Shown here piece after piece: positions 8,805 through 58,861 of a DNA stretch of 64,000 nucleotides. The translations under genes were made by a program, and so were the position numbers. The DNA is from Candidatus Woesearchaeota archaeon (GTDB taxonomy: Archaea > Nanobdellota > Nanobdellia > Woesearchaeales > UBA10216), in the NCBI GenBank assembly GCA_016192905.1, contig JACPTG010000004.1, positions 5,745 through 69,744 on the forward strand, written 5' to 3'. Below the pieces are notes generated by a model. That model ran no database searches. It saw nothing but the letters and a program-made list of their open reading frames with translations, and was not told the origin of the DNA. Numbering within the stretch: the first letter of the stretch is position 1; each line of letters begins with the position of its first letter.

Positions 8805-8946
8805 CCCTTAAACAGCCTTTTAAAATTCACCCTTTATTATATTTTGCCTTATTCAAAGACTTAGGTGTAAATTTAACCGCCATTAAGTGGCTTATAAAAC
8901 TGTTAAACTAACCTTAATTTGTTCACTGCCTTTATTGGGTTGAACC

Positions 8947-9435: not shown

Positions 9436-9502
9436 GATGGACACCTTTGCAAGGCATCAACAATCCTCATATATGAAGTTTGCGGTTGCGTTTTGGAAAG
9501 AC

Positions 9503-10147: not shown

Positions 10148-10202
10148 TTTATCCCCCCCAAGCTCCATCTCCGCAGAATACATCCATTCATGATTGGCAG
10201 GA

Positions 10203-15029: not shown

Positions 15030-15057
15030 GTGTCTAAGCAACTAAATTTTAACCACC

Positions 15058-42636: not shown

Positions 42637-44813
42637 AAAATAAGCTTGAATCCAATGAGCCCCCTGAAGAGCTTTTCAGCTCCATAAACAGGAGGCGGGC
42701 AAAGGAGCTTGAAGCCCTCAACAAAAGGCTGCGCGACCACATACTTCTAAGGGATTCTGCCCAGCGCGGCCTTGTTGATGAGTTCAAGAGGCAGATTGCG
42801 GAGAAGGACTCCATGATTCACAGGCTCACCAGCGAGCTTGACAACGCGCTGGCTGGCTCAGGGGAAAAGGACTCATTAAAACTGAGAGTTGCCAGCCTTG
42901 AATCTGAGAACAAAAAGCTCGCCTCAAAAGGAAGAGCCCTCGAGTCAGGGCTTGAATTGATGCAGCATGTAAAGGAAAAGGATTCCCAGTCAAGGGTGCA
43001 GGCCCTCTCTGCACGAATTGCAGAACTGGAGCGGCTCAACTCAGAGCTAAGCCAACGTACAGACTCCTTCAGGCCGGTAATGCAGCCCAAAAAACCTGAC
43101 GTAGAGGTTCTGGCGCTGAGGAACAAGGTGGCTGAACTGGAAGGCCTCAACAGAAAACTCCGCGACCACATACTCCTAAGGGACTCTGCCGAAAGGGCAA
43201 TGATCGAAGAATACAGGCAACAGATGGCCCAGAAGGATGAGCTGCTCAAGGCACTTGACTCCTCAAAGCTGGAATCAGACTCAGCCAGATTCTCTGAAAA
43301 TTCAGCCCTGTTCGCAACAGGCCTCCAAAAGGCCCAGCAGGCGTCCTCAATACTCAAGGCCCAGATTGAAACGAAAGAGGATGAAATTGAAAAGCTCAAG
43401 CAGGCCCATGATTCAAAAGAAAAATCATACGAAGCGTTGTGCACCCAGCTTACAGCCCAGCTGAAAGAGCGCAGCTTTGAGGTTGAAAGGCTGAAGGCAT
43501 TCGTATCCCAAAGGGAGGCGCTATACCAGAGCGTGGAGGCTGAGCTTGAGAAGGAAATCGCAAAAAAGGATGCACTGCTCAGGAAGCATGAGGTTTCCAG
43601 GCCAGCAGAGCACGTCATAGAGCTTGAAGAGCAGATAGCCCATTCAAGACAGGTCATAACACTAAAGGAGGCAGCAGCCAAAAGGGCATTCCTAGACTCG
43701 GTCAGGCTAAGAGAGAAAAACTCGGGCCTGGAAGCAGACCTCAAGGAGGTTAAAACAGCATTTGAATCCTCAAAGCAGGATTATGAGAGGCTGCTCTCAC
43801 GCCTGAAGGCAGAGTCAGACCGCTCCATCAAAGCACTCATAACCGACTATTCATCCAGAGAGGCTATGTTAAGGGCTGAAAATGAAAAGCTCAAGTCAGA
43901 GGTTTCAAGAAAACAGCTTGAGCTTGGAGAGCAGTCAAGGAAAATTGACGCAGCCATAACCGAATTCAGGGCCAGGTCAGACCAAATAATACAGCTCAGG
44001 CCAATAACGCAGGTTACGCCTGCTCCAGAGCCAGCTGCGCCGGATACAACGGTCCAGAGCCAGACTCCAAGGCATATACAGACAGAAGAACAGCTTAACG
44101 ACTACGCAAAGAAAGCCAGGGCCCTGAGAGAGAGCCTCTTCAAGAAGGACAGGGAGCTAATAAGCCGGGAAAATGAGATGAAACGCCGCGAAGAACAGCT
44201 CAGCCTTAAGGACAGCGAACTGAACACAATGCTTGGCGTTGTTGAGCGGAGGTTTGCCGAACTCCAGCAGCGTGAGGAAAGCCTGTCAAGGCAGGAACAA
44301 ATCCTGCTCAAGCAACAGGAAGCCCTAAACAAGGAGCTAAACTCCATGCCTGAGGCAAAGCCAGCTGAAATGCGGCCTGCTATTGCATCAATTAAAGCAG
44401 AGCCTGAAATTAAGATAGCAGGGCCTGAACCTAAACAAAGGCCAAAGCCCATTGTAAAGCCAGCCATAATCAAACAGGCTGTAAGCGTGGTTGCCCAGGA
44501 GCAGCCGGTACAACAGCTACCAAAGGAGCAGCCCAAAGACAGAGGGCCCCTGCTCATGGAGGAACTTGAAACAGTCCAAAGGATTATCCCAATAAAAGCC
44601 TCAAGCCAGAAGGTTGTTCCAGCGCCAAAGCAGGACGCAGAGATAGACCTGGCAAGCCAGTCCATAGGATACCATGAAGTTGACGAAATCGCAGCAATGG
44701 CTGACGTTGCCCTGCAGCACAATACCTCTGTGGAACAGATAAGAAAGAGCCTGGCAGCATCAGGCTACTCAAAAGAAAGCATCGAAAAGGCGTTCAAGAA
44801 GATGGGGCTTTAG
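42633..44813 (+). CDS. Long coiled-coil protein with small globular C-terminal domain, hypothetical
   Basis: 726 aa, E/K/L/Q/R-rich heptad-like sequence. A ~40-aa motif is duplicated internally (LNKRLRDHILLRDSAQRGLVDEFKRQIAEKD and LNRKLRDHILLRDSAERAMIEEYRQQMAQKD). There is an ATGA overlap with the rfcS stop. Confidence 0.75.
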   Translation: MKNKLESNEPPEELFSSINRRRAKELEALNKRLRDHILLRDSAQRGLVDEFKRQIAEKDSMIHRLTSELDNALAGSGEKDSLKLRVASLESENKKLASKGRALESGLELMQHVKEKDSQSRVQALSARIAELERLNSELSQRTDSFRPVMQPKKPDVEVLALRNKVAELEGLNRKLRDHILLRDSAERAMIEEYRQQMAQKDELLKALDSSKLESDSARFSENSALFATGLQKAQQASSILKAQIETKEDEIEKLKQAHDSKEKSYEALCTQLTAQLKERSFEVERLKAFVSQREALYQSVEAELEKEIAKKDALLRKHEVSRPAEHVIELEEQIAHSRQVITLKEAAAKRAFLDSVRLREKNSGLEADLKEVKTAFESSKQDYERLLSRLKAESDRSIKALITDYSSREAMLRAENEKLKSEVSRKQLELGEQSRKIDAAITEFRARSDQIIQLRPITQVTPAPEPAAPDTTVQSQTPRHIQTEEQLNDYAKKARALRESLFKKDRELISRENEMKRREEQLSLKDSELNTMLGVVERRFAELQQREESLSRQEQILLKQQEALNKELNSMPEAKPAEMRPAIASIKAEPEIKIAGPEPKQRPKPIVKPAIIKQAVSVVAQEQPVQQLPKEQPKDRGPLLMEELETVQRIIPIKASSQKVVPAPKQDAEIDLASQSIGYHEVDEIAAMADVALQHNTSVEQIRKSLAASGYSKESIEKAFKKMGL

Positions 44814-44816
44814 ATT

Positions 44817-45623
44817 ATGGAAAAGAGACTTGCAGTGGTTGCAGGAATTCTGATTCTATTGGCGCCTTTGGCAGTGCTTGGCCTGCCAAGAATAGACAAG
44901 GCATTGTTCCCAGCAAACCAAGCTCCTGGGCCAATTACAATCTTCGGAGTAGGGCTTGTCTTTACAGCGCTTACAGTAATAATCCTGATTAACTACACCA
45001 GGGAAAAAAACATGGGCAAGGCCTTTCTCTTTGCAGCCATTAGCTATAACATTCTGCTGGTGATTACCCGGTTTATATCATCGCCCTTAAGCCTATACGA
45101 GGCAAATAAGTTTAAAACCTTTGACTGCACAATCTGGGACAGTCCTATACTTATCGGGATTATTGCCATTTATGTCTTCATGCTCTACTTTGCCGTGTTC
45201 CTGCTTTTTTACCTATTTAGCAGAAACATAGTGAGCGCAAAGATAGGCCCACAAGACATAAAACCCCTCTTCAGCCTTAAAATTCCTGCATTCATCGGGA
45301 TTGCACTCCTGGCGATGCTGATATTAGGGGGTGGCAGTATGGTCTTGATACTAGTATTTTTCCCTCTACTTGACTATCTCAGGATAATTTTCTCAACACT
45401 GATGGGGGCTGCCATTGCGCTTGCACTGCTTGGAGCCGTCCTATTCCTAAAGGCTGCCTTTAAGGAGGCTGCTGAGCAGGCAATAGCAATAAGAGATGCA
45501 GGGGTCCTGGCAGGGTTCTTCTGGCTCGGCGCCGGGCTGCTGGTCCTGTATTCTTCAATGTGGCTGGTTTACATATTAACAGTCATTGCCATTTGGCCGC
45601 TTAAGACAGTCTGCCCAAAATGA
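44817..45623 (+). CDS. Polytopic membrane protein, hypothetical
   Basis: 268 aa with at least six hydrophobic segments. There is an ATGA overlap with the next gene. Confidence 0.7.
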   Translation: MEKRLAVVAGILILLAPLAVLGLPRIDKALFPANQAPGPITIFGVGLVFTALTVIILINYTREKNMGKAFLFAAISYNILLVITRFISSPLSLYEANKFKTFDCTIWDSPILIGIIAIYVFMLYFAVFLLFYLFSRNIVSAKIGPQDIKPLFSLKIPAFIGIALLAMLILGGGSMVLILVFFPLLDYLRIIFSTLMGAAIALALLGAVLFLKAAFKEAAEQAIAIRDAGVLAGFFWLGAGLLVLYSSMWLVYILTVIAIWPLKTVCPK

Positions 45624-46612
45624 GGCTGCTCAAGCTTCCAAAGCTATTTTTCCAGCTGCTCAGGTATCGCGTGGCTGTGATGCTGCTGATGTTCCTGCTT
45701 CTCGGAATTGCAGTTCACGACGGGCTCACAGGATTCAGCGTTTATTATCTGTACGCGGCGATTTCAGTCATTTGCGGGTATGTGGCGGCAACAAGCATCA
45801 ACGACATCGCAGACGAGAAGATAGACAAAGTAAACCATCCTGGCAGCGAAGGGAGGCCCCTGGTTTCAGGCGAAGCATCTGTGGCTGACCTGTATACATT
45901 AAATGGCCTCTCGGCTGCTGCCTCAGTTTTATTTGCATTTATCATTGGAAACACGGCACTTGTTATAGCCCTGATATCTGTTACCATAAGCTATGCTTAT
46001 TCCCTTCGGCCTGCTGCCATTTCGCACAGGACGCACGGAGCATACTTTCTCCTGGCTGTAGCATACGTGCTGCTGCCATACTGGCTTGGCGTTGCAGCCA
46101 CAGGCGCAGTATTCGGGATTTCAGACCTGTACCTTACGGCTTCCCTTATGGCCCTTTTTTTTGGAAGGATACTGCTCAAGGATTTCAGGGACAGAAAAGG
46201 AGACACCGCCTATGGAAAGCCAACCTTCCTTCTAAAGTACGGCAAACGTGCCACGGTAACTTTAAGCGCAATATCAATTCTTGCCGGAAATGCCCTTCTC
46301 CTCCTTTCGCTCAGGGAAAACGGAATTATCAAGTTGCTGCTGCTTGAAATCCTTTTTGTCCTTATCTACGCATCCGGCTATATGCTCCTAAAAGCAAGGA
46401 GCTTCAAGTCTGAGCAGGTGGCCATAGGACTTGGTGCAAAGCTTGGCAACGGAGTTGTCCTAAGCCTTCTTGGCCTTTTCATACTAAAAGGGTATAATGC
46501 TCCTGAAGGGCACGCCCTCTTTTTTCAGGCAGCAATAACCATGCTTTTTGCCGCAAGTTTCGCCTACCTGGCACAAAGGCCAAAGATTGCCATAATAGGC
46601 TACAGGGGTTAG
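45620..46612 (+). CDS. UbiA-family prenyltransferase (possibly DGGGP synthase)
   Basis: NDIADEKIDKVNHPGSEGRPLVSGE is the NDxxDxxxD motif. The protein is polytopic and sits next to a polyprenyl synthase gene. Confidence 0.8.
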   Translation: MRLLKLPKLFFQLLRYRVAVMLLMFLLLGIAVHDGLTGFSVYYLYAAISVICGYVAATSINDIADEKIDKVNHPGSEGRPLVSGEASVADLYTLNGLSAAASVLFAFIIGNTALVIALISVTISYAYSLRPAAISHRTHGAYFLLAVAYVLLPYWLGVAATGAVFGISDLYLTASLMALFFGRILLKDFRDRKGDTAYGKPTFLLKYGKRATVTLSAISILAGNALLLLSLRENGIIKLLLLEILFVLIYASGYMLLKARSFKSEQVAIGLGAKLGNGVVLSLLGLFILKGYNAPEGHALFFQAAITMLFAASFAYLAQRPKIAIIGYRG

Positions 46613-46617
46613 GCAAG

Positions 46618-46627
46618 AATTTTATAT
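46618..46627 (+). promoter_or_regulatory. TATA-like box upstream of the polyprenyl synthase gene
   Basis: aattttatat is centred about 25 nt upstream of the ATG at 46649. Confidence 0.45.
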
Positions 46628-46648
46628 GCCCTGGAATCACCTTATGCC

Positions 46649-47683
46649 ATGGAGGAGTATGTAAGGACTGCTGTATCCAGAGTTGAGTCAGAAATCAGGA
46701 GCTTCCTTCCCAAAGAGTCTTCTGGCGAATGGTGCAAAGGCATTGTTGATGGACTGGCTGATCCAGACTCCCTGATCCAAGTGTCCAGCAAACCCTTCTA
46801 TGAGCTTTTTGAAAGGGGAGGAAAGCGACTGAGACCTGTATTTGCATGCCTGGCGCATGATGCCCTGGGAGGCGAAAGCCCTGACATTTACAGGCTTGCA
46901 GGCATGATAGAGGTAGTCCACACAGGCACCTTAATTTTGGACGATATCGAGGACAAATCCGAGATAAGAAGGGGAAAGCCTGCTGTCCACAGAATTTTCG
47001 GCACAGAATTATCCATAAACACAGGCGTGCTTCTTGCATTTCTGCCGCAATTGCTGATTCAGAGAACCAGCCTGAGCATGGCTCAGAAGGCCTCCATGCA
47101 TGAGGCCATGGTACAGCACTTGACCAAGGTCATTGCAGGCCAAGGGCTTGATTTGTACTGGAGCAAAAGCCTCAAATTCGATGTCGGGCTGGATGACCAC
47201 CTTATCATGTGCAGGCTTAAGACCGGCTCCCTGTTTGCTGCTGCTGCAAAAATCGGAGCAATAGCCGCGGGCGCAGAACAACAGGTTATTGACAGGCTCG
47301 CGACTGCAGCTGAAGATGCCGGAGAAGCATTTCAAGTTCAGGACGACCTCCTCAATTTAAGGCCTTCTGCCAGCCTCGGCAAGGCGTTTGCAGAGGATAT
47401 TACAGAAGGCAAGGTCACATTCCCTGTTTTATTTTCAATGGCCAGAGCAGGCACTGAGGACAGGCTTAGGCTTCTGGGAATCCTCACTTCTGGAACCAGG
47501 CAGCCCGGCGAGCTCCAGGCCGCGATTAAGATTATTCAGGAGACAGGCGCTATTGCTGAAGCCAAGTCACACGCCGACAAGCTATTCAGAAGCGCAAAAC
47601 AAGGGTTTTCAGAGGCCTTGCCTGATGGCCGGCACAGGGAGATTCTGCTTACGCTCATAGACTCAATCGCGGCAAGAGGATAG
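46649..47683 (+). CDS. Polyprenyl (probably geranylgeranyl) diphosphate synthase
   Basis: LILDDIED (first DDxxD) and FQVQDDLLN (second DDxxD) are present. Confidence 0.9.
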   Translation: MEEYVRTAVSRVESEIRSFLPKESSGEWCKGIVDGLADPDSLIQVSSKPFYELFERGGKRLRPVFACLAHDALGGESPDIYRLAGMIEVVHTGTLILDDIEDKSEIRRGKPAVHRIFGTELSINTGVLLAFLPQLLIQRTSLSMAQKASMHEAMVQHLTKVIAGQGLDLYWSKSLKFDVGLDDHLIMCRLKTGSLFAAAAKIGAIAAGAEQQVIDRLATAAEDAGEAFQVQDDLLNLRPSASLGKAFAEDITEGKVTFPVLFSMARAGTEDRLRLLGILTSGTRQPGELQAAIKIIQETGAIAEAKSHADKLFRSAKQGFSEALPDGRHREILLTLIDSIAARG

Positions 47684-47687
47684 AAAT

Positions 47688-48629
47688 TTATCTCAAATGC
47701 TTGACAAGAATAGCTGTGTCCTCATGCTGCTTGTAGTTGTAGGAAAGCTCTATGCTGATTGGAGTCTGGAACTCCCTCTGGCCTGACACTGAGGCGGTAT
47801 TCATTGAGCAGGTGACAGGCCTCTTGTTCTCAGTAAGAACCACGTCGCCCTCGTTTGTGCCGCCAAGGGTTGAGCAGGTGATTGCGCCAACGCTTGCAGA
47901 CACCTTGACATGCACCTTGTTCTTGTTCTGGAAAGCCGTGTCGCAAAGGGCTCCTGAATGCACTGCGCCTGTTCCCTTATGGACCACATCAAATGAAAAA
48001 GTGAGCTTATTCTCTCCGCCGGGGTCCTGCTTGAAGTTTGCAACCTGCACAGGCGAGCCTGAATTTGAAACTGTCTTTGCCTCATCTATCTTGCAAGTCG
48101 GCTCGCGGTCAAACCTTGGAAGGAGCTTGTCAACGCAGAACTGGGTCGTGGAGAGCGTCTTATACCTGTAGCAGATATCTGCCCTTAAAGTGAATGGCGT
48201 GTTCCCAGGCAGGGAATGCTTATACTTGAAAGGCTCATCAGGGCTGACGCCGAAAGACACGTGTATCGGGCTGCCCTCTGTGCACTTGCCATCCTGATCC
48301 TTCTGCCTGGAGGGAACTGCCTCTGCAACTATTTTGCTGTATGACGGGCCGCCAAAGTCTGACTGGCTAATCCCTGACAACTCTATTTTCGTATCTGACG
48401 GCTGAACTGTGAACTCACCCTTGTTCAGGAGCCGCAGGGTCACCTCAAATGGGAACTGGTTGTTGTCAAACACCTCTGCCGGAGGGCCGCCCTCAACAAA
48501 CTTCATCTCGATGCCATCAATGCCTCCGCAAAATGGGCTCCCGCCAGAGCCTGGCTGAGTCTGGGTGCATCCTGCAAGTATTAAAGAAACAAGTATAATG
48601 ACAAGAGGAAGCACCTGTTTTGACTTCAT
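47688..48629 (-). CDS. Lipobox-bearing secreted protein, paralog 1 of 3
   Basis: MKSKQVLPLVIILVSLILAGCTQ carries a LAGC lipobox. It shares blocks with the next two genes: GIEMKFVEGGPP, ADICYRYKTLSTTQFCVD, SGSPVQVANF and ELSYNYKQ. Confidence 0.8.
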   Translation of the reverse strand: MKSKQVLPLVIILVSLILAGCTQTQPGSGGSPFCGGIDGIEMKFVEGGPPAEVFDNNQFPFEVTLRLLNKGEFTVQPSDTKIELSGISQSDFGGPSYSKIVAEAVPSRQKDQDGKCTEGSPIHVSFGVSPDEPFKYKHSLPGNTPFTLRADICYRYKTLSTTQFCVDKLLPRFDREPTCKIDEAKTVSNSGSPVQVANFKQDPGGENKLTFSFDVVHKGTGAVHSGALCDTAFQNKNKVHVKVSASVGAITCSTLGGTNEGDVVLTENKRPVTCSMNTASVSGQREFQTPISIELSYNYKQHEDTAILVKHLR

Positions 48630-48670
48630 ACCGGGCTGGCCTTGTGAATGGTGTTTTATAAATCTTTCTT

Positions 48671-49588
48671 TTACCTGGGTATCTTGGCGATTTCCAGGTC
48701 CTTGCTGACACTGTCCCTGTAACCATACCTGAGCCTGATGATTATCGGAGAGTTGAATGCAGCATTCTGGCCTCCTGGAATGCTATACGTGCAGAGGAAG
48801 CTCTTCCTGCCGTCTATAAGCTTAATGAAGCCCTCATTGTTGCCAAGGTCGACATTGCACGGCTGGCCGCCAATTGTAACTGACTCCACCCTTATCTGGT
48901 TAAGCTCCTCAAACTTCAGGCCAGGGCCGTAAGGCTGGCAACCATCCTCATGATCCACCTGGTAAACCAGGCCAGGGCCTACATTCTGGACGTGTATTGT
49001 AAACCTTATCTTGCCTGCGGCATTGCTCGGCTCTATCCTGGTTACAGCAACAGGCGCGCCCTGGCTGGACAAGCTTACTGGAGCTGACGTGCACACTTTC
49101 TGCCTCTCTGTAACGCCAAAGGGGGTTGGATCAACGCAAACCATTGTCGAGGCTATGGTCTCGTAATTGTAACAGGCAGTTGCCAGTATCCTTGTCCTGT
49201 AAACATCCACCTCGTCACTCAGCCTGGCATTCACCTTGAAATCCTTCCATGCAATCTCACCCTGCGAGTCTCCCACAGACTTTCCCCTAATGCCAAGCCC
49301 ATCATAAGGGATTCCTGCGCCGTTGGGGTTGCGCAGGTCACTGAGCACGCTTGGGTCAAACCCGCTAAGGTATACGTTGCCCTCTGCGGTCGCCCAGCCA
49401 GTGTTCTTTATCTGCAGGCTGATGCCCATCTCGCCTGGAACGATAAACCTGTCCGGGGGATTACCCTGGATAAAGCTCATCTCCAATCCGCGAGTACCAG
49501 ACCTTGTGTCAGGGGCTGACTGCTGCCCGCAGCCGGCAATCGCAATCGCGGCAAATACAAGAATTATGGCGGCTGCTCCTTTGCTCAT
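48671..49588 (-). CDS. Lipobox-bearing secreted protein, paralog 2 of 3
   Basis: MSKGAAAIILVFAAIAIAGCGQ carries the lipobox. Shared blocks are GLEMSFIQGNPP, ATACYNYETIASTMVCVD, QGAPVAVTRIEP and RLRYGYRD. Confidence 0.8.
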   Translation of the reverse strand: MSKGAAAIILVFAAIAIAGCGQQSAPDTRSGTRGLEMSFIQGNPPDRFIVPGEMGISLQIKNTGWATAEGNVYLSGFDPSVLSDLRNPNGAGIPYDGLGIRGKSVGDSQGEIAWKDFKVNARLSDEVDVYRTRILATACYNYETIASTMVCVDPTPFGVTERQKVCTSAPVSLSSQGAPVAVTRIEPSNAAGKIRFTIHVQNVGPGLVYQVDHEDGCQPYGPGLKFEELNQIRVESVTIGGQPCNVDLGNNEGFIKLIDGRKSFLCTYSIPGGQNAAFNSPIIIRLRYGYRDSVSKDLEIAKIPR

Positions 49589-49618
49589 TCCTGCGATTCC
49601 CCAACTTTCGTATATAAA

Positions 49619-50557
49619 TTATTCGGTCTTTGTTATCGTGACCTTTTTGGACTCGCTTGACATGTACCCGTAGCTCAGCTTTACAAGAAGCGGGGTGTTG
49701 TAGCTTGGAGTGGATGCCGGAACAGCCTCTGAAGCGATGCACCTCACCTTACCCTCGCCTGACTCCAGCCTGACAGGGTTCGGGCTGCAATCAAGCCCTT
49801 TTTCCGAAAGGCTGGCTGTTATGCCCACCATATTCAGCGCCCTTGGCTCAAGGATAGCCTCTGTGCACAGGGCTTGTACTGCCTCGCCGCTGACAACCTG
49901 GCCCAAGCCAACATTCTTGATATGAACAGTATATTGGGGCCTTACTGCTGTAATTGAACTTCCGCTTCCATCAGGAAGCATTTCAGGCTCAATCTTTACA
50001 ACAGCAACAGGCGCGCCCTGGCCGCTAAAGGCTAAGGATTTTGGAACACATGCCTTCTGCTTCATGTTGATGTTCAGCAGGTCAGCATCTATGCATGTAT
50101 CTGACAATGATTCTGTCGAGTACCTGTAGCAGGCTACAGCAGTTATCTTTGTTTCCCTCTTCTTTGACTGAACCTCAGTAAACGGCAGTGTCTGCGATGA
50201 GAAAAATTCGAATATGACTGTGCCAGGCGGGTTTGCCGGGCCCCTTCCAAGGAGTGAAACCTCACGTGAAGCATCCTCAACCCGAATATAATCCGGATTG
50301 TATATTATTGCCAGAAGGCCGCTGTCCACATCCGCAGCACCCTTATTGCTGATTTTCAGGCTGATTTTATAATCAACTCCCGCCTCCTCGCCTGCCTGCA
50401 GGTTTTCAGGGGGCCCGTTGGGAAGGAACTCTATCTTAATGCCCTCTGTACCTGAATGAATTGCCGAGTAGGAGACAGGCAAGCTTGGGCTTCCATCCCC
50501 TGACTTGCAGCCTGCCAGGGTCATCAGCGCAAGTATCGCGAATGCAGGCCATTTCAT
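49619..50557 (-). CDS. Lipobox-bearing secreted protein, paralog 3 of 3
   Basis: MKWPAFAILALMTLAGCKS carries the lipobox. Shared blocks are GIKIEFLPNGPP, AVACYRYSTESLSDTCID, QGAPVAVVKIEP and KLSYGYMS. There is an ATGA overlap with the upstream gene. Confidence 0.8.
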   Translation of the reverse strand: MKWPAFAILALMTLAGCKSGDGSPSLPVSYSAIHSGTEGIKIEFLPNGPPENLQAGEEAGVDYKISLKISNKGAADVDSGLLAIIYNPDYIRVEDASREVSLLGRGPANPPGTVIFEFFSSQTLPFTEVQSKKRETKITAVACYRYSTESLSDTCIDADLLNINMKQKACVPKSLAFSGQGAPVAVVKIEPEMLPDGSGSSITAVRPQYTVHIKNVGLGQVVSGEAVQALCTEAILEPRALNMVGITASLSEKGLDCSPNPVRLESGEGKVRCIASEAVPASTPSYNTPLLVKLSYGYMSSESKKVTITKTE

Positions 50558-52212
50558 GGAGAGACCTCAGGAACGGCCTCGCCAGCCTCACTGGAGCCCT
50601 CACCTGCACTTCCTTCCTCAACCGGAGCTGCTTCCTCAGGCGGCTGTGCGGGCGGTTCAGAGCCTGCTTTTTCAGGAACCTTCCTTTTTTCCTTTAAGTC
50701 AAGGGAAAGGTCCTTCTCAACAGAATAAACATAGCGGGCGTTAACCTTGAAGTTCCTGATGGCGAAAGGCTTTCCAGCCAAAAGCAAGGTATTATCAGTA
50801 ACCAGCAGGCTGCACCTGAAACTCTGATACTTGTCAATCTTAGTGAATTTTTCAGAGTCATCCTCGCGCTCTGCGGCTATGTCCAGAGAGTACAGGCTGT
50901 TTCCTGAAGAGTCCTCGCCAGCGTGGATGAACTTATGCGTACATCCCTCAGTTTCATACAGCTCTATTCCCCTTGGGAGGGTAATCACAACCTCTTCAAT
51001 GTCCTCAATCCTGCCTGACCACCTGTTGCTTATAGTTATCCCCAGTGACATCCTTGAGGCATCCTCCAGCCCGATTGGAGGCTCTGGAGCGCTAATGCCT
51101 ATCATGACAGGCCCGGGAGTGTGCACTGCAACAGGCTTTGGATCAGGCGCATCGTAAAGCCTCAACGGGTCTAAGCCATCCCTACCCAGAGACTTTAAAG
51201 TCTCTTTTTTCATGAAGTAACTGAGGAGCTCAGCCTGTGTTGTGAACCTGAACTGCGCAGCTGCCTTAATAGGATGAGTCCCTCTCTTAAGCCCCTTCAA
51301 CCTGCAGTCGAAGACAATGGTCTCTGAGCCAAGGATCTCAAAGGCCTCAGGCTGCGCCTGTCCTTCTGTCTCATCTGTCTTCTCCCTGTCAGACCAGCAG
51401 CGCGGGCTGGCGGAAATTGGCCTTGTCCTGTCAAGATTCGCGGCCTTGACTGTTGCCAGAAGCAAAACATCCTGGCCCTCCCTGTATTCCTGGTCTGCGG
51501 TCTTAAGCTCTGTAATGGACAGACTTATGGCAGAGCCAGACTCCTCTTTTCCAGGGTAAAATGCCTGGGTCGCAGAGTTGATATAATTATCCCAAGCCTT
51601 CTGCACTGTAACTGGAAGATTGACAATAGCGCGGCCAGTCTTCTGCAGCCCACCAATCAAAGTCCCCAAAGAATCCTGCGGGCCTGCCTGCACCCTTGTT
51701 TCAGCAAGGCCCAGCCGCTCAAGGACAAGGGAAAGCTGAGGGTAAATTATTCCAAAGACCAGCAAAAGGACAAGACAAACCCTTAGAAGCTCACCAAAAA
51801 AGCTCTTTGGAATATAGCTCTTGATGAACACCCAGGCCCAAACAGGGGCGAGCATGAGCAGGGACATGTTCAAAAGGAGCGTAAAGTCGCCCTGCGGCAG
51901 CTTTGAAACCTGCAGCCAAAGGTATGGTATGCCAAGGGAAAGCAGGGAGATGAAAATGGCTGGCTTAAGCTCAATTACCCTGAACAGGTAGGCGAATGTC
52001 ACAATAAGAAAATAAGCAAGAACCCTTGCCTCCAGGCTGATGTTATACCTGACTATCAGCTCATAGAACTGGTACAGGACCACAAACAGTATGAAGATTG
52101 CAGGAACCTCTGCCTTAGGCTTCAGAAAGTCAGGCCACCTCATAGTTATGCTTGTGCGCTGCGGCGGAGAATTCTCCCTTGCCAGAAGGTTATACGTTGG
52201 GTCTGGAGCCAT
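50554..52212 (-). CDS. Polytopic membrane protein with large extracytoplasmic domain and acidic tail
   Basis: 552 aa. About six N-terminal hydrophobic helices precede a soluble domain with features resembling the lipoprotein paralogs (GPVMIGISAPEPP, FKVNARYVYSVEKD). The tail is E/A/P-rich. Confidence 0.8.
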   Translation of the reverse strand: MAPDPTYNLLARENSPPQRTSITMRWPDFLKPKAEVPAIFILFVVLYQFYELIVRYNISLEARVLAYFLIVTFAYLFRVIELKPAIFISLLSLGIPYLWLQVSKLPQGDFTLLLNMSLLMLAPVWAWVFIKSYIPKSFFGELLRVCLVLLLVFGIIYPQLSLVLERLGLAETRVQAGPQDSLGTLIGGLQKTGRAIVNLPVTVQKAWDNYINSATQAFYPGKEESGSAISLSITELKTADQEYREGQDVLLLATVKAANLDRTRPISASPRCWSDREKTDETEGQAQPEAFEILGSETIVFDCRLKGLKRGTHPIKAAAQFRFTTQAELLSYFMKKETLKSLGRDGLDPLRLYDAPDPKPVAVHTPGPVMIGISAPEPPIGLEDASRMSLGITISNRWSGRIEDIEEVVITLPRGIELYETEGCTHKFIHAGEDSSGNSLYSLDIAAEREDDSEKFTKIDKYQSFRCSLLVTDNTLLLAGKPFAIRNFKVNARYVYSVEKDLSLDLKEKRKVPEKAGSEPPAQPPEEAAPVEEGSAGEGSSEAGEAVPEVSP

Positions 52213-52281
52213 CTATCCCTGAGCCTCTTTGTTTAAAGGAACTTAATCGCCCAGGCGCATTTAAATCTTTCTAGAAGCAAT

Positions 52282-53445
52282 TTACTCAAGCTGAATCCTC
52301 AGCTCAATGACATTAAGCGTTGTCTCAGGGGCTATCCTAATGAAGTTGTTCCCCCGCACTATATACTGGTCTATGTTCCTTGTGAAGTTAGCAGTCCTCC
52401 TCGTGTCCATAGACAGCTTCCTGTTGTTGATGGTAAGCTCTGCCCTCTTCTCCTCACCATCATCAACAAAGCCCATCCTTAGGAAAGTATCAAAAGTGTT
52501 GTTGTTAATCCACGCATACTGGGTATCGTTAACCTCAAAAAAGTATATCGGGTCAATCGGCTGCCTCAGCTTTGTCTTAACCTGCACCTGATCCATCAGG
52601 TAGCTTCCCGAGTCAGCTGAAAACCTGACAGTGTTAACTCCCCTGCTCAGCAGCCCAGCGTCAATAGGAAGCTTAACAGGGCTGCCACAATCCGGAACCC
52701 CGGAATGCACAAGCCCGTCATTCACAAAGACCCTCAGACTCCCTGCCTCAGTAACCCTGCAATACACGAAATACAGAAGATTTGCGCTTTCCAGCCCATT
52801 AATCTCCTCTGTGCCAATAATGAACGTCTGCTTGGCCTCCAAGCCCTCTGTCTGGCTTACCGTAGCAGTTATCTTAGCATCGGTCATCTCATAGAAGTTC
52901 CTCTGCCAGAAGGCAAATCCTGTCTCAGGCGCTGAAAATTCCAGCACATTGTCATCCTGAAGATTGTCCAGGCCAATCAGCTGCGCTCCTGATGCCTCGC
53001 CGTTAAAAATCTCCTGGTCGTTAAGCGAGACAATCAGCCTGCCGCTATGATCCTTTACCTGGAAGCTTAGCTGGGCATTCCCGGTCTTCCCGGGCTCTGC
53101 TGAGAATGCCACAGTCCTTTTCTTTGTGCTTCCGCTCTTGGACTCGACAAACACAGAGCCTATGGACTTCATCACGCGGTCTTCAGACTTCGCATAAAGG
53201 TTAAAAGCGTTAAGGTTATGTTCAAACTGGTCCTGCTTTGCCCTGAAGACTGTCCCGGGCTTCTCCAGCAGAAGAATCCTTGAAGGCTCTGAAATCCCCT
53301 TTACCTCGCCTGTGGTAGTGTTAGTGCCCAGCAGCTCCTCCCTTGCCTCAGGAGGCAGGAAAAGTATGTAAAGGAGCATAAGGCCAAGTATCGCCGCTAT
53401 AAGCGAAGCTGCCCCGCCTGCGCTCTGACCCTTTTTCGCGTGCAT
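52282..53445 (-). CDS. Pilin-like (class III signal peptide-like) secreted protein with repeated jelly-roll-like modules
   Basis: The N-terminus is MHAKKGQSAGGAASLIAAILGLMLLYILFL. Three similar segments follow (GRLIVSLNDQEIF..., GSLRVFVNDGLVH..., AELTINNRKLS...). Confidence 0.75.
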   Translation of the reverse strand: MHAKKGQSAGGAASLIAAILGLMLLYILFLPPEAREELLGTNTTTGEVKGISEPSRILLLEKPGTVFRAKQDQFEHNLNAFNLYAKSEDRVMKSIGSVFVESKSGSTKKRTVAFSAEPGKTGNAQLSFQVKDHSGRLIVSLNDQEIFNGEASGAQLIGLDNLQDDNVLEFSAPETGFAFWQRNFYEMTDAKITATVSQTEGLEAKQTFIIGTEEINGLESANLLYFVYCRVTEAGSLRVFVNDGLVHSGVPDCGSPVKLPIDAGLLSRGVNTVRFSADSGSYLMDQVQVKTKLRQPIDPIYFFEVNDTQYAWINNNTFDTFLRMGFVDDGEEKRAELTINNRKLSMDTRRTANFTRNIDQYIVRGNNFIRIAPETTLNVIELRIQLE

Positions 53446-53468
53446 TAAGAAGCCTAGAATCGCACAAC

Positions 53469-53480
53469 TTTATATATAAA
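53469..53480 (+). promoter_or_regulatory. TATA box upstream of pelota (divergent spacer)
   Basis: tttatatataaa is centred about 25 nt upstream of the ATG at 53499. Confidence 0.5.
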
Positions 53481-53498
53481 TCTTTCTTAGTGTTCCAA

Positions 53499-54548
53499 AT
53501 GCGCATCCTAAAGTCTTTCCTGAAGCATGGCGAAATCACTGTTGAGGTAACCTCACTTGATGACCTGTGGGCCCTGAGCCAGGTTATAGAGCCCGGCGAC
53601 CATGTCAAGGGAAGAACCCTGAGAAGGATAAAGGTAGGAGACCGCGACTCCACTGAAACCGTGAGGAAGCCTGTATGGATAAAGCTCACGGTTGAAAACG
53701 TGGAGTTCCACAAGTATTCAAACGTGCTGAGGGTTGGCGGAATGATAACAGAAGCGCCTGAAGACGTTCCCAAGGCGCACCACACATTCAGCTTTGAAGA
53801 GGGCACTGTAGCCATGATAACCAAGGAAAAATGGCTGAATTACCAGCTTTCCAGAATCAGGGAAGCGTCTCAAGAAAGGAATGAAAGGATTGTAGTGTGC
53901 GCATTTGACAGGGAGGAAGCGGTTTTCGCGCTCCTGCTCTCCCAGGGGTATAAGGTGCTGGCTGAAATCAGGGGCCAGGTTGAAAAAAAAGGGCAGAAGT
54001 CAGAGTCGAGGAACTTCTACAAGGAGATAATCAAACTCCTGGCAGAATATTCCGAAAGGTTCAATGCCCAGCACCTGATAGTTGCGTCGCCATCATTCTG
54101 GAAGGATGAGCTCCTCAAGGAGCTTGGAAGAAACGAATTAAAAACAAAAATAGTCACAGCCACATGCAGCAGCGTGACAAAAGGCATTGATGAAGTGCTG
54201 AAAAGCAGCGAGCTCAAGGGCGTGCTAAGGCAGGAACGCACTGCAAAGGAATCAAGGCTTGTTGAAGAGCTGTTCCTCGAGATTTCAAGACAGGGCAACG
54301 CCAGCTACGGGCTTGCCGAGACAGAAAACGCATCGCAGGCAGGGGCAGTCAGGATACTGATGGTAACGGACGGCCTTATCCAGAAGACAAGGCAGGATGG
54401 GAGCTTTGGAAGGATAGAAAAGATTATGCGCAGCGCCGACACAGCCGCAGGGGAAGTGGCAATCCTCAACAGCGACAACGACCCTGGAAAAAAGCTGGAC
54501 GGCCTCGGAGGGATTGCTGCGCTGCTGAGGTATAAGACGGGGTATTAG
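53499..54548 (+). CDS. pelA: Pelota (mRNA surveillance / ribosome rescue factor)
   Basis: MRILKSFLKHGEITVEVTSLDDLWALSQVIEPGDHVKGRTLRRIK... shows the eRF1-like domain order. The first ATG is at 53499 (the track start at 53490 is GTG). Confidence 0.9.
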   Translation: MRILKSFLKHGEITVEVTSLDDLWALSQVIEPGDHVKGRTLRRIKVGDRDSTETVRKPVWIKLTVENVEFHKYSNVLRVGGMITEAPEDVPKAHHTFSFEEGTVAMITKEKWLNYQLSRIREASQERNERIVVCAFDREEAVFALLLSQGYKVLAEIRGQVEKKGQKSESRNFYKEIIKLLAEYSERFNAQHLIVASPSFWKDELLKELGRNELKTKIVTATCSSVTKGIDEVLKSSELKGVLRQERTAKESRLVEELFLEISRQGNASYGLAETENASQAGAVRILMVTDGLIQKTRQDGSFGRIEKIMRSADTAAGEVAILNSDNDPGKKLDGLGGIAALLRYKTGY

Positions 54549-58642: not shown

Positions 58643-58722
58643 TAGCAGGCTGTGGCTACCTTGGATTTAACAGCCCCTTTCGGGAGACTCGTGGCGTGTA
58701 CGGCCAGGCTTCGTGAACCGCC
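58643..58722 (+). repeat. MITE-like intergenic repeat, copy F (L-arm type)
   Basis: Sequence is tagcaggctgtggctaccttggatttaacagcccctttcgggagactcgtggcgtgtacggccaggcttcgtgaaccgcc. It aligns with copy A and with the reverse complement of copy E. Confidence 0.8.
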
Positions 58723-58861
58723 CCCTGTTTACTTCCTCTTGCTTGATGAACTCTTTCAATTGTACAGCTTACATTGTACCGTACACCAAAAAAAGGGCCT
58801 TTCAATAACTCGCATCCGCATCGGGATAAATTTTTATAGCTCAAATTTCAGAATTTGCCGC

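What the first reader, a model, noticed from the sequence alone, without database searches (positions are those of the whole stretch)
47688..53445. Five-gene envelope operon: pilin-like protein, polytopic membrane protein and three tandem paralogous lipobox proteins
On the minus strand the genes run in this order: 52282..53445 (class III-like signal peptide plus three jelly-roll-like segments), 50554..52212 (about six TM helices, a large ectodomain and an acidic tail), then 49619..50557, 48671..49588 and 47688..48629. The last three all begin with a signal peptide ending (L/I)AGC. They share ordered blocks: G(I/L)(E/K)(M/I)xF(V/I/L)xxxPP, A(D/T/V)(I/A)CY(R/N)Y.....(T/S/D)..C(V/I)D, (S/Q)G(S/A)PV(Q/A)V and (L/R)(S/R)Y(N/G)Y. 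The ectodomain of the polytopic protein appears distantly related to them. One junction is an ATGA overlap (50554-50557) and the others are 30-70-nt spacers. I do not recognise the family. The combination looks like a dedicated surface or periplasm-like assembly anchored by lipidation, which is poorly studied in archaea outside haloarchaea.
Basis: partly seen in the sequence, partly recalled or inferred. Interest (0 to 1): 0.7.

Follow-up and report, generated by a model that had tools for sequence, protein, structure and literature searches.

The report
Conserved Woesearchaeota cell-surface gene cluster
Five neighbouring genes for membrane-anchored surface proteins with no described family form a cluster conserved across Woesearchaeota (tiny DPANN archaea), and in many relatives one of them carries a bacterial-cell-wall-cutting domain, so it may be the cell's contact platform for partner bacteria.

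Summary
The five minus-strand genes are real and lie exactly where stated. The lipobox signals, shared motif blocks, ATGA overlap and spacers were all verified. G3, G4 and G5 are true paralogues (BLASTP E 1e-15 to 5e-29). None of the five matches Pfam, NCBIfam, PHROGs or PDB sequences.

The cluster G1, G2, then 2-3 lipoproteins, usually divergent from pelota, recurs in 14 non-redundant Woesearchaeota/Nanoarchaeota loci. Two loci have G1 alone. The three lipoproteins are ancient positional orthologue groups (204/216 best hits), and the G2-G3 junction is tight in 10/12 loci.

AlphaFold models:
- Lipoprotein G4 is a tandem Ig-like beta-sandwich (pLDDT 92.8).
- G1 is an N-terminal helix plus three CBM/galactose-binding-like jelly-rolls (pLDDT 86.5).
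- Structural matches for both are generic only.

Two claims did not hold. The G2 ectodomain is not detectably related to the lipoproteins (hhalign no better than controls). The "operon" looks like about four promoter-bearing units.

New clue: in 5-6 of 15 loci G2 carries a C-terminal SLT/GH23 lytic transglycosylase, scattered across the tree. The window's G2 has lost it.

Best reading (confidence about 0.4) is a hetero-oligomeric surface platform for contact with a partner's cell wall. The function itself is unproven.

The parts
52282..53445 (-). G1: 387-aa surface protein. It has a conserved [KR][GA]Q motif, a hydrophobic N-terminal helix (class-III-like signal or signal anchor), a disordered linker, and three CBM/galactose-binding-like jelly-roll domains (about aa 57-200, 203-293 and 300-386).
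   Evidence: ORF. AF2 pLDDT is 86.5. Foldseek matches GH35 beta-galactosidase C-terminal jelly-rolls, BcsB carbohydrate-binding domains, CBM51 and the Cry protoxin CBM-like domains. 76 homologues were found, all Woesearchaeota where named. [KR][GA]x occurs in 59/65 members, with Gln at +1 in 51.
50554..52212 (-). G2: 552-aa polytopic membrane protein. It has 5-6 TM segments (aa 36-156), a conserved ectodomain core (aa 205-516) and a 36-aa acidic Pro/Glu/Ala-rich tail (aa 517-552, nt 50557-50664). Orthologues carry SLT/GH23 or other modules at the position of this tail.
   Evidence: ORF. Hydropathy and core boundaries. Positional orthologues score E = 4e-31 and 7e-52. Alignment A3. SLT in orthologues is shown. 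No SLT-like domain was found anywhere in the window.
49619..50557 (-). G3: 312-aa lipobox (LAGC) protein, the position-1 paralogue. Its start codon overlaps the G2 stop codon (ATGA) and it has no TATA element of its own.
   Evidence: The tight G2-G3 junction occurs in 10/12 loci. Positional orthology is 65/72.
48671..49588 (-). G4: 305-aa lipobox (IAGC) protein, the position-2 paralogue. It is a tandem Ig-like/CARDB-DUF11-like beta-sandwich with conserved cysteines.
   Evidence: AF2 pLDDT 92.8 and pTM 0.86. Foldseek gives only generic tandem beta-sandwich matches. 135 homologues were found, and 3,380 representatives at E <= 1e-3. Positional orthology is 72/72.
47688..48629 (-). G5: 313-aa lipobox (LAGC) protein, the position-3 paralogue.
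   Evidence: Positional orthology is 67/72.
53473..53487 (-). BRE/TATA-like promoter element (AGAAAGATTTATATA) about 30 nt upstream of the G1 ATG. It lies in the 44-nt divergent gap shared with pelota and implies a leaderless or near-leaderless G1 mRNA.
52258..52272 (-). BRE/TATA-like element (AGAAAGATTTAAATG) in the 69-nt G1-G2 spacer. It is followed by an SD-like AGAGG 12 nt before the G2 ATG.
49611..49618 (-). TATA-like TTTATATA in the 30-nt G3-G4 spacer. A TATA-like element 28-40 nt before G4 recurs in most related loci.
48655..48669 (-). BRE/TATA-like element (AGAAAGATTTATAAA) in the 41-nt G4-G5 spacer, about 29 nt before the G5 ATG.
53490..54548 (+). pelota (eRF1-like). It is the conserved divergent neighbour of the cluster and serves as a synteny anchor. 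It is not a functional part of the cluster.
   Evidence: Pfam eRF1_1/2/3. Pelota is adjacent to G1 in L001, L003, L005, L006, L007, L015, L017, L018 and the JGI locus.

Best explanation
The five genes encode a lineage-specific, multi-subunit platform on the outer face of the Woesearchaeota cell membrane. It is used to contact glycan cell walls of partner cells, probably bacteria.

Proposed working (steps marked 'inferred' are not shown):
1. G3, G4 and G5 are exported by Sec and lipid-anchored at the lipobox Cys, presumably by an AliA-type pathway (inferred). Each is a rigid pair of disulfide-stabilised Ig-like beta-sandwiches.
2. They are three ancient, non-interchangeable paralogues and form a hetero-oligomer (inferred).
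3. G2 is held in the membrane by about five TM helices. It is made in fixed proportion to G3 through translational coupling, and its beta-rich ectodomain docks onto the lipoprotein pedestal (inferred).
4. The C-terminus of G2 is a socket for lineage-variable outward-facing modules. In many lineages this is an SLT/GH23 lytic transglycosylase that would cut peptidoglycan. In others it is an Ig, fn3 or Cys-rich module.
5. In this organism the module has been lost and only an acidic linker-like tail remains.
6. G1 is anchored by a pilin-like N-terminal helix, possibly processed by a prepilin peptidase (inferred). It holds three CBM-like jelly-rolls that bind glycan (inferred).

All units carry consensus promoters, which suggests high constitutive expression.
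For: Shown:
- Conserved order G1, G2, then 2-3 lipoproteins in 14 non-redundant loci spanning deep divergence. G1 identity falls to about 30% and G2 to about 21%.
- The triplication is ancient and its order is fixed: 204/216 cross-locus best hits fall on the same position.
- The G2-G3 junction is 4 nt or less, or overlapping, in 10/12 loci. G3 alone lacks a TATA element.
- All 103 aligned family members have a Cys at the end of a Sec-type signal peptide. 95 match a lipobox pattern and none has a Tat motif.
- Confident all-beta models were obtained. G1 domains match carbohydrate-binding jelly-rolls, including BcsB, GH35 and CBM51.
- SLT PF01464 scores above Pfam's gathering cut-off in the G2 of L006, L007, L013 and L015. 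It is faint in a JGI locus and probable in L009.
- The SLT is always C-terminal to the core and is scattered over the G1+G2 tree.
- G2 evolves fast and its tails vary, as expected of a partner-facing protein.
- Three of the best promoter-consensus matches in the window lie in this cluster.

Literature:
- Large extracellular SLT/GH23 proteins of Woesearchaeota have been proposed to bind or degrade bacterial walls (PMC8204110; PMC9723730).
- AliA is reported in DPANN (PMC12462473).
- DPANN carry Epd-type (system 1) type-IV-filament systems, and class-III-signal proteins can be encoded away from pilus loci (10.64898/2026.04.22.720090).
Against: - No physical interaction among the five products was tested or predicted.
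- The window's own G2 has no SLT, and no SLT-like domain was found anywhere in the 64 kb. The core function therefore cannot depend on peptidoglycan cleavage.
- Structural matches are at the generic fold level only, with TM-scores of about 0.2-0.3. Glycan binding by G1 is inferred from fold class and not from any identified binding site.
- The cluster sits in a housekeeping synteny block and seems near-universal in the lineage. It also occurs on a 1.84 Mb contig. That fits a basic envelope role as well as it fits a symbiosis role.
- Two genomes keep G1 without G2-G5 nearby.
- Only 3 of 65 G1 sequences pass the strict FlaFind class-III pattern.
- The hosts of Woesearchaeota are unknown.
Confidence: 0.4

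Rival explanations
1. The cluster is a structural envelope scaffold. The five proteins would be constitutive building blocks of the Woesearchaeota cell envelope: an S-layer, an S-layer anchor, or a pseudo-periplasmic lattice made of Ig-like domains. They would have no specific role in partner contact, and the SLT and other tails would be secondary add-ons.
For: - The cluster is near-universal and lies in a fixed position within a housekeeping block: pelota, TrmB, PheRS, RFC, Tyr/TrpRS.
- Every unit has a consensus promoter.
- Tandem Ig-like domains are the usual building material of archaeal and bacterial S-layers. The D. radiodurans HPI S-layer protein is among the Foldseek hits.
- The cluster persists after loss of SLT in the window, L001, L017 and L018.
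Against: [quoted passage not shown] This cluster has five distinct membrane-tethered ones.
- No S-layer Pfam family matches.
- The fast-evolving, module-swapping G2 tail and the CBM-like G1 look like ligand-facing proteins rather than lattice proteins.
- The window also encodes four giant secreted proteins that are equally good S-layer or surface-coat candidates.
Confidence: 0.25
2. The cluster is a surface glycan-foraging module, analogous to Sus-like systems of Bacteroidota or the archaeal bindosome. Lipid-anchored beta-sandwich proteins and the CBM-like G1 would capture polysaccharide or peptidoglycan fragments. The G2 SLT would cut them, and the products would be taken up by a transporter encoded elsewhere.
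For: - G1 matches CBM/galactose-binding-like folds found on glycoside hydrolases.
- GH23/SLT is fused to G2 in several lineages.
- Paralogous tandem beta-sandwich lipoproteins resemble SusE/SusF in general architecture (own knowledge, not tested here).
- Class-III-signal binding proteins are encoded away from pilus loci in other archaea (10.64898/2026.04.22.720090).
- Woesearchaeota are predicted to degrade peptidoglycan (PMC9723730).
Against: - No transporter (ABC, SusC-like or other) is encoded in or beside the cluster in any of the loci examined.
- The G2 TM region is poorly conserved, with a single invariant Pro, which is unlike a permease.
- The cluster lies in a housekeeping block with consensus promoters rather than beside substrate-specific genes. 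Regulation itself was not tested.
- Half of the lineages lack any hydrolase module.
Confidence: 0.15
3. The cluster is an accessory module of a type-IV-filament (Epd-like) pilus. G1 would be a large minor or tip pilin inserted into a pilus by machinery encoded elsewhere. G2-G5 would form the membrane-proximal base or envelope-crossing collar, with SLT as the wall-opening enzyme by analogy with VirB1-type transglycosylases.
For: - The [KR][GA]Q motif directly before the hydrophobic helix is conserved in 51-59 of 65 G1 sequences. Gln at +1 is the hallmark of EppA-processed Epd pilins of Methanococcus (own knowledge).
- DPANN carry system-1 (Epd-type) machineries.
- G1 has its own promoter and can separate from G2-G5.
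Against: - No pilus ATPase, platform protein or prepilin peptidase lies in the window or within 8-9 kb of the cluster in any locus.
- Only 3/65 sequences pass the strict FlaFind pattern.
- G3-G5 are lipoproteins and not pilins.
- An archaeon has no peptidoglycan of its own to open.
Confidence: 0.1

Closest known systems
Large extracellular SLT/GH23 'murein-like lytic transglycosylase' proteins of Woesearchaeota and Pacearchaeota (fam00969, Module 98 of Castelle et al. 2021, PMC8204110; also Vigneron et al. 2022, PMC9723730)
   Same: The lineage is the same and the location is extracellular. The SLT domain is the same one found on G2 orthologues (L006, L007, L013, L015). Those authors proposed a role in binding or degrading bacterial cell walls. 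The five families here are plausibly among the 51 mostly unannotated lineage-specific families of Module 98.
   Different: Those papers describe single large proteins (up to 3,000 aa) identified by the SLT domain. In the passages read they do not describe this five-gene cluster, the polytopic G2 scaffold, the lipoprotein triplet or G1. The window's G2 has no SLT at all. I could not check whether G2 belongs to fam00969.
Bacterial-type lipoproteins and predicted archaeal lipoproteins (lipobox; AliA/AliB pathway of Haloferax volcanii, PMC12462473)
   Same: G3-G5 and essentially all 103 aligned relatives have a Sec-type signal peptide that ends in a lipobox-like [LVI][ASTVI][GAS]C. Lipoproteins and AliA are reported to be prevalent in DPANN.
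   Different: The mature domains belong to no described lipoprotein family. Lipidation has not been demonstrated in any DPANN archaeon. No AliA or Lgt candidate could be identified in the window.
Archaeal class-III-signal (type IV pilin-like) surface proteins with large globular domains, such as the Sulfolobales bindosome sugar-binding proteins and Epd-type pilins
   Same: G1 has a short charged N-terminus, a conserved [KR][GA]Q, a hydrophobic helix of about 20 residues and then a large extracellular domain. Like bindosome proteins, it is encoded away from any pilus machinery.
   Different: The extracellular part is three CBM-like jelly-rolls and not a substrate-binding-protein fold. No ABC transporter is adjacent. 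The strict class-III pattern is mostly not met, and processing is untested.
BcsB, the periplasmic subunit of bacterial cellulose synthase, and the CBM-like C-terminal domains of GH35 beta-galactosidases
   Same: These are the best structural matches to G1. They are membrane-tethered or enzyme-appended jelly-roll carbohydrate-binding domains arranged in tandem.
   Different: The match is at domain level only (TM-score about 0.2, 7-14% identity). No synthase or hydrolase partner is encoded in the window's cluster. The anchor is N-terminal, whereas BcsB has a C-terminal TM anchor (own knowledge).
Multi-protein Ig-like surface complexes of monoderm bacteria (WxL/WxLIP loci; RbmA; DUF11/CARDB repeat proteins)
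   Same: They are two-domain Ig-like beta-sandwich surface proteins encoded as neighbouring paralogues, and they appear among the Foldseek hits for G4.
   Different: There is no sequence relationship. The anchoring differs (lipobox here, against WxL, LPXTG or a C-terminal TM). The similarity is at the level of fold class.

Membership tests
Lipobox lipoproteins (signal peptidase II type) | N-terminal signal peptide with a positive n-region and a hydrophobic h-region, ending in the lipobox [LVI][ASTVI][GAS]C | tested here: met
   G3 has LAGC, G4 has IAGC and G5 has LAGC. 95/103 family members match the pattern and the other 8 are near-variants. The median Cys position is 19. No twin-arginine motif is present.
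Lipobox lipoproteins (signal peptidase II type) | A lipidation/processing pathway in the same genome (Lgt/Lsp, or archaeal AliA/AliB) | not testable with these tools
   Only 64 kb of the genome is available. No candidate was recognised by Pfam or NCBIfam among the window genes. AliA is reported in DPANN generally (PMC12462473).
Type IV pilin-like / class III signal peptide proteins | A short charged leader, [KR][GA] at -2/-1, and a hydrophobic helix of about 20 residues that starts at the cleavage site (FlaFind pattern) | tested here: inconclusive
   [KR][GA]x lies within the first 15 residues in 59/65 G1 sequences, with Gln at +1 in 51. Only 3/65 satisfy the strict FlaFind pattern, because 5-7 small residues (SAGGAAS) precede the hydrophobic core. 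AF2 predicts a helix at residues 10-29.
Type IV pilin-like / class III signal peptide proteins | Genomic association with a type-IV-filament ATPase, platform protein or prepilin peptidase | tested here: not met
   None is present in the window or within 8-9 kb of the cluster in any related locus. Absence from the whole genome cannot be tested.
SLT / GH23 lytic transglycosylase | A Pfam PF01464 match above the gathering score, with the catalytic Glu and the G-[LIV]-M-Q and A-Y-N-G motifs | tested here: not met
   The window's G2 has no hit. A tail-derived HMM finds nothing in any window ORF. The feature is met in orthologues: L006 25.0 bits, L007 21.8, L013 31.7 and L015 35.8, against a cut-off of 21.3. 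L009 is probable only (goose lysozyme E = 0.27).
CARDB / DUF11 / Ig-like beta-sandwich surface repeats | A sequence-profile match to the Pfam families, and a beta-sandwich fold | tested here: inconclusive
   The fold is met: the AF2 tandem beta-sandwich hits integrin legs, complement MG domains, RbmA and a DUF11 protein in Foldseek. The sequence profile is not met, with no Pfam hit at E <= 1 apart from noise.
Carbohydrate-binding modules / galactose-binding domain-like | A jelly-roll fold, a profile match to a CBM family, and identifiable sugar-binding residues | tested here: inconclusive
   The fold is met for the three G1 domains. There is no Pfam or NCBIfam match for the window's G1. One homologue, P0185, carries a precomputed PF14683 hit. 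Binding residues were not assessed.
Archaeal S-layer proteins | A match to a known S-layer family, or demonstrated lattice formation and high abundance | not testable with these tools
   No Pfam S-layer family is hit. Lattice formation and abundance need experiments.
Single polycistronic operon | One promoter upstream of the first gene and no internal promoters or terminators | tested here: inconclusive
   Consensus BRE/TATA elements precede G1, G2, G4 and G5. G3 is coupled to G2 by the ATGA overlap. No transcript data are available.
Paralogy of the G2 ectodomain with the lipoprotein family | Profile-profile similarity above that of unrelated beta-rich secreted proteins | tested here: not met
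   hhalign gives E = 0.079, against 0.021 and 0.009 for the controls. There is no hmmsearch cross-hit.

The most novel reading that the evidence does not exclude
The cluster encodes the core of a previously undescribed cross-domain contact machine. This would be an archaeal surface complex built on a pedestal of three ancient lipoprotein paralogues and a polytopic subunit. It would dock onto bacterial peptidoglycan through the CBM-like G1 and, in lineages that keep the SLT module, breach it. If so, it would be the conserved host-attachment and feeding interface of Woesearchaeota.
Probability: 0.2. Interest if true: 0.8.

Novelty: new variant of a known kind. Interest (0 to 1): 0.55.

Why it matters
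Woesearchaeota are among the most widespread DPANN archaea. No host, envelope structure or attachment mechanism was identified for them in the literature searched here, and as far as I know the lineage is uncultured.

This cluster gives a concrete, lineage-wide target:
- Three protein families have no curated model. The lipoprotein family alone has about 3,400 representatives of 50%-identity clusters.
- Confident structure models are available for two of the families.
- The gene order is fixed.
- A recurrent fusion to a peptidoglycan-cleaving domain links the cluster to the long-standing idea that these archaea live on bacteria.

The cluster is also a clear, conserved case of lipobox proteins in DPANN. 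It could be used to test whether the newly found archaeal lipoprotein pathway (AliA/AliB) operates outside haloarchaea.

If the cluster turns out to be a plain envelope scaffold, it would still be the first candidate envelope module for this lineage.

Tried and rejected
1. Known-family assignment. Pfam, NCBIfam, PHROGs and PDB sequence searches (single sequence and profile) gave nothing credible. Weak hits (LEA_2, RRM_10, LptM signal peptide, SelT) are noise or signal-peptide matches.
2. Homology between the G2 ectodomain and the lipoproteins. I tried a shallow profile, a deep profile with a reversed control, hmmsearch, and a re-aligned 11-sequence G2 profile with G1 as negative control. The result is not above the controls, so the claim is rejected as unsupported.
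3. Homology between G1 and the lipoproteins. None was found.
4. Pattern-seeded locus searches with alignments A2, A3 and A4 failed because no stretch was conserved enough. The single-protein genome-contig scan found only a 94%-identical contig.
5. An 'M23/LytM-like' reading of the L005 G2 tail is rejected. The only PDB hit is a spurious match to a designed propeller repeat. The L008 tail gave only noise.
6. The 11-mer as a cluster-specific operator is rejected. The degenerate form is the organism's general promoter consensus (13 sites, also before other genes) and it recurs in other genomes.
7. A provirus or mobile-element origin is rejected. There are no PHROGs hits. The GC profile across the cluster (0.49-0.52) matches the rest of the window. 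The chromosomal position is fixed and housekeeping across genomes.
8. The ORF-poor region at 640-7082 as non-coding or recoded sequence is rejected. It is one giant minus-strand ORF that runs off the window edge.
9. A structure prediction of G2 was not attempted. Both prediction jobs went to G4 and G1, where deep alignments of admissible sequences were available.

Full report
OBSERVATION

- G1: 52282-53445, 387 aa
- G2: 50554-52212, 552 aa
- G3: 49619-50557, 312 aa
- G4: 48671-49588, 305 aa
- G5: 47688-48629, 313 aa

G3-G5 begin with signal peptides ending in LAGC, IAGC and LAGC. They are clearly paralogous, with BLASTP E = 5e-29, 3e-19 and 8e-16 at 25-28% identity. The G2/G3 ATGA overlap was read directly from the sequence. 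The other spacers are 69, 30 and 41 nt. The window is archaeal: it contains an archaeal SRP RNA and pelota, RFC, tRNA-splicing endonuclease and similar genes.

NO KNOWN FAMILY

None of the five products matches Pfam, NCBIfam or PHROGs at meaningful E-values. G4 alone and a profile of G2 orthologues also find nothing among PDB sequences. Homologues are nevertheless numerous:
- 135 word-indexed hits for G4.
- 76 hits for G1.
- 3,380 representatives of 50%-identity clusters at E <= 1e-3 for a 103-sequence profile of the lipoprotein family, of which 1,695 are at E <= 1e-30.

Every named hit is 'Candidatus Woesearchaeota', 'Nanoarchaeota' or an unclassified archaeon (GW2011_AR16), and every one is annotated 'hypothetical protein'. 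G2 evolves much faster. The word-indexed search found only G2 itself and a 93%-identical relative, but positional orthologues are recognisable by BLASTP (E = 4e-31 and 7e-52).

CONSERVATION OF THE CLUSTER

I retrieved loci through lipoprotein homologues (L001, L003, L005-L008, L015) and through G1 homologues (L009, L010, L012, L013, L016-L018, plus one JGI locus without DNA). I annotated them with HMMs of the three families.

- Fourteen non-redundant loci, counting the window, show G1, then G2, then lipoproteins on one strand. Twelve have three lipoproteins, L006 has two, and L013 is cut by the contig end. The JGI locus, which was not HMM-checked because no DNA was returned, has the same gene layout.
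- In at least nine loci pelota is the divergent neighbour of G1. RFC-small, a PRC-barrel protein, a Cas4-like nuclease and Tyr/Trp-tRNA synthetase usually follow.
- The window keeps this block, but a coiled-coil protein, a membrane protein, a UbiA prenyltransferase and a polyprenyl synthase are inserted between G5 and RFC.
- Two related genomes (L010 and L016, the latter on a 1.14 Mb contig) keep G1 near pelota but lack G2-G5 within 7-9 kb.

SIGNS OF A MULTI-SUBUNIT ASSEMBLY

- The three lipoproteins are ancient positional orthologue groups. Across nine loci, 204 of 216 best BLAST hits in other loci fall on the gene at the same position. Median scores are 110-144 bits for the same position and 53 bits for different positions. 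The triplication therefore predates the divergence of these lineages, and all three copies are kept in a fixed order.
- The junction between G2 and the first lipoprotein is 4 nt or less, or overlapping, in 10 of 12 loci. The other junctions are 12-160 nt.
- G3 is the only gene without its own upstream TATA-like element, in the window and in nearly all loci.

These features suggest fixed stoichiometry between G2 and G3, and non-redundant roles for G3, G4 and G5. Physical interaction itself remains an inference.

TRANSCRIPTION

The exact 11-mer AGAAAGATTTA is a purine-rich BRE-like stretch plus the start of a TATA box. It occurs three times in the 64-kb window, and all three copies are in this cluster. 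They lie about 31, 49 and 29 nt before the ATGs of G1, G2 and G5 (0.04 expected by chance). G4 has a TTTATATA about 23 nt upstream.

The degenerate form AAAGNTTTAWAWA is the organism's general promoter consensus. It has 13 sites against 1.2 expected, including sites before topoisomerase I, the SRP RNA and translin. It also recurs before cluster genes in other genomes. The cluster is therefore best described as about four units (G1 | G2-G3 | G4 | G5), each with a consensus, probably strong, promoter. G1, G4 and G5 are probably leaderless. This fits the fact that G1 can be separated from the rest in L010 and L016.

STRUCTURES

G4, predicted with 103 sequences, gives a confident model (pLDDT 92.8, pTM 0.86). 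It is a signal helix followed by two beta-sandwich domains. Foldseek finds only generic multi-beta-sandwich proteins: integrin alpha legs, complement MG domains, RbmA, usher chaperones, WxLIP, the AglB C-terminal domain, the D. radiodurans HPI S-layer protein and a viral DUF11 protein. TM-scores are about 0.2-0.3. Six cysteines besides the lipobox Cys are invariant or nearly invariant in the family, as expected for disulfide-stabilised extracellular domains.

G1, predicted with 65 sequences, gives pLDDT 86.5. It has a helix at residues 10-29, a disordered linker and three beta-sandwich domains. The best matches are carbohydrate-binding-type jelly-rolls: GH35 beta-galactosidase C-terminal domains, the BcsB carbohydrate-binding domains, tandem CBM51, the Cry protoxin CBM-like domains and reelin. 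These are again matches at domain level.

TARGETING SIGNALS

All 103 aligned lipoprotein-family members have a Cys at the end of a Sec-type signal peptide. 95 match a lipobox pattern and none has a Tat motif.

In G1, [KR][GA]x precedes the hydrophobic helix in 59/65 sequences, with Gln at +1 in 51. The most conserved stretch is YILFLPPxER. Conservation of Gly/Ala-Gln goes beyond what a simple signal anchor needs, and it resembles EppA-type class III signals (own knowledge). However, only 3/65 sequences pass the strict FlaFind pattern, and no pilus gene is nearby. I therefore regard prepilin-type processing as plausible but unproven. A 2026 preprint reports Epd-type 'system 1' filament machineries in DPANN and class-III-signal proteins encoded away from pilus loci. 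A 2025 paper reports abundant predicted lipoproteins and AliA in DPANN.

G2 has a positively charged N-terminus and five to six hydrophobic segments (aa 36-156). An odd number would place the ectodomain outside, consistent with the fused extracellular enzymes in orthologues. The TM region is poorly conserved, with a single invariant Pro. That argues for an anchor rather than a channel or an enzyme.

THE CLAIM THAT FAILED

By eye the G2 ectodomain shows blocks collinear with the lipoproteins: TPGPVxIGI against QGAPVAV, NxWxG against NVGxG, and YDY against YGY. Profile-profile comparison does not separate this from background. Lipoprotein vs G2 ectodomain gives E = 0.079, lipoprotein vs G1 gives 0.021, and G1 vs G2 gives 0.009. 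An earlier run gave 0.015 against 0.37 for a reversed control. hmmsearch gives no cross-hit. A structural comparison would be needed.

FUNCTIONAL CLUE FROM DOMAIN FUSIONS

G2 orthologues range from 496 to 1112 aa. The variation lies partly in the N-terminus and mainly in what follows the conserved core.
- Pfam SLT (PF01464, lytic transglycosylase, GH23) scores above its gathering cut-off in L006, L007, L013 and L015.
- It is recorded as a faint hit in the JGI locus.
- L009 is the closest clade to the window (G1 61% identical). Its tail has the E...GVMQIN...YYNG motifs and best matches goose-type lysozymes, but only at E about 0.3.
- Other tails are Ig-like, fn3-like, Cys-rich or of unknown type.
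- The window's tail is a 36-aa acidic Pro/Glu/Ala-rich stretch. No SLT-like domain is found in any window ORF.

On a rough NJ tree of G1 plus the G2 core (no bootstrap), SLT-bearing loci are scattered and sister to SLT-less ones. The SLT is always in the same position, and by eye the SLT tails share Cys-rich inserts. This favours an ancestral fusion with repeated loss, including a recent loss in the window's lineage.

[quoted passage not shown] They proposed attachment to, or attack on, bacterial cell walls (PMC8204110; PMC9723730). One of them also reported a module of 51 mostly unannotated families specific to these lineages. In the passages I read, neither paper describes this cluster. Three further literature searches found no description of it either.

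INTERPRETATION

The best-supported reading is a conserved, hetero-oligomeric platform on the outer face of the membrane.
- A pedestal is formed by three lipid-anchored Ig-like paralogues and the polytopic G2.
- The C-terminus of G2 displays lineage-variable outward modules, often a peptidoglycan-cleaving SLT.
- A separately transcribed, pilin-like-anchored G1 carries CBM-like domains.
- The most likely job is contact with a glycan cell wall of a partner organism. In this organism the lytic module is lost, so the role would be adhesive or structural only.

I put this at about 0.4. The main rival, at 0.25, is a purely structural envelope or S-layer-type scaffold. It is favoured by the housekeeping location, the near-universality and the persistence of the cluster without SLT. 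A glycan-foraging module (0.15) lacks any adjacent transporter. A pilus-accessory role (0.1) lacks any adjacent pilus gene.

Shown: the genes, their conservation and order, the folds, the signals and the fusions. Inferred: complex formation, lipidation, prepilin processing, glycan binding and the partner.

NOVELTY AND SCORE

The protein families are uncurated and confined to one DPANN lineage. I found no description of the cluster in the searched literature. The general kind of system, membrane-tethered surface complexes built from Ig-like and CBM-like domains, is familiar. So is the idea that Woesearchaeota use SLT proteins on bacteria. I therefore rate it a new variant of a known kind, with interest 0.55. 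It gives DPANN envelope and host-contact biology a well-defined, structurally tractable, lineage-wide target, but there is no demonstrated mechanism yet.

Noticed in passing
window 3-8804 (-), 10203-15041 (-), 15949-20634 (-), 21539-25900 (-), with small genes at 9503-10273, 15107-15952 and 20622-21542 (-): Four giant secreted-protein genes lie in a row. The first is at least 2,934 aa, runs off the left edge of the window, and has a signal peptide plus Cys-rich, Ig-like and Dumpy-like bits. The others are 1,612, 1,561 and 1,453 aa and show only M64-like fragments or a CBM60 domain. Each is followed by an unannotated 256-306-aa gene, giving a repeated 'giant + small' module. These are candidate surface-coat or adhesin proteins. 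None has an SLT domain.
   Followed up: partly
window 53446-53499: Pelota and G1 are divergent and only 44 nt apart, and they share one near-palindromic TATA element (TTTATATATAAA). The listed GTG start of pelota (53490) is probably wrong. The ATG at 53499 (MRILK...) fits a leaderless transcript from the same bidirectional promoter.
   Followed up: partly
L004 (contig CAZDCW010000021.1): A 23.6-kb contig is about 94% identical to the window cluster at protein level, but it is deposited in a MAG titled 'uncultured Methanosarcinales archaeon'. All other relatives are Woesearchaeota, so this contig is probably mis-binned.
   Followed up: no
window 42633-47683 (+): Compared with other Woesearchaeota loci, four genes are inserted between RFC-small and the cluster. 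They are a 726-aa coiled-coil protein with no family, a 268-aa polytopic membrane protein with no Pfam or NCBIfam match, a UbiA-family prenyltransferase and a short-chain polyprenyl diphosphate synthase. The synthase ends 4 nt from the G5 stop codon, in convergent orientation. I could not test whether the unannotated membrane protein relates to lipid or lipoprotein modification.
   Followed up: partly
window 58652-61429 (+): A 925-aa ORF contains an intein (Intein_splicing plus a LAGLIDADG homing endonuclease, aa 140-546). The host protein was not identified. A V-ATPase A subunit with an intein was also seen in L016.
   Followed up: no
L010 and L016 (G1 at about 9001-10190 in each): In one clade, G1 sits between the V-ATPase operon and pelota, in the same orientation as pelota. 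G2-G5 are absent within 7-9 kb. It is unknown whether those genomes keep G2-G5 elsewhere or have lost them.
   Followed up: partly
L015 2638-4317; P0170, P0187 and other G1 homologues of 550-590 aa; P0335 (767 aa): Long forms exist of G1 (about 170-200 extra residues with no Pfam match) and of the lipoproteins (400-480 aa in L007, L015, L017 and L018). One 767-aa member carries fn3 domains. Accessory modules therefore vary on all subunits, not only on G2.
   Followed up: partly
window 39325-40176 (+): A stand-alone Cas4-like PD-(D/E)xK nuclease (TIGR00372, above cut-off) has no other cas genes among the neighbours annotated here. It is conserved in the same synteny block in most related loci. 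The window was not scanned for CRISPR arrays beyond positions 1-9500.
   Followed up: no
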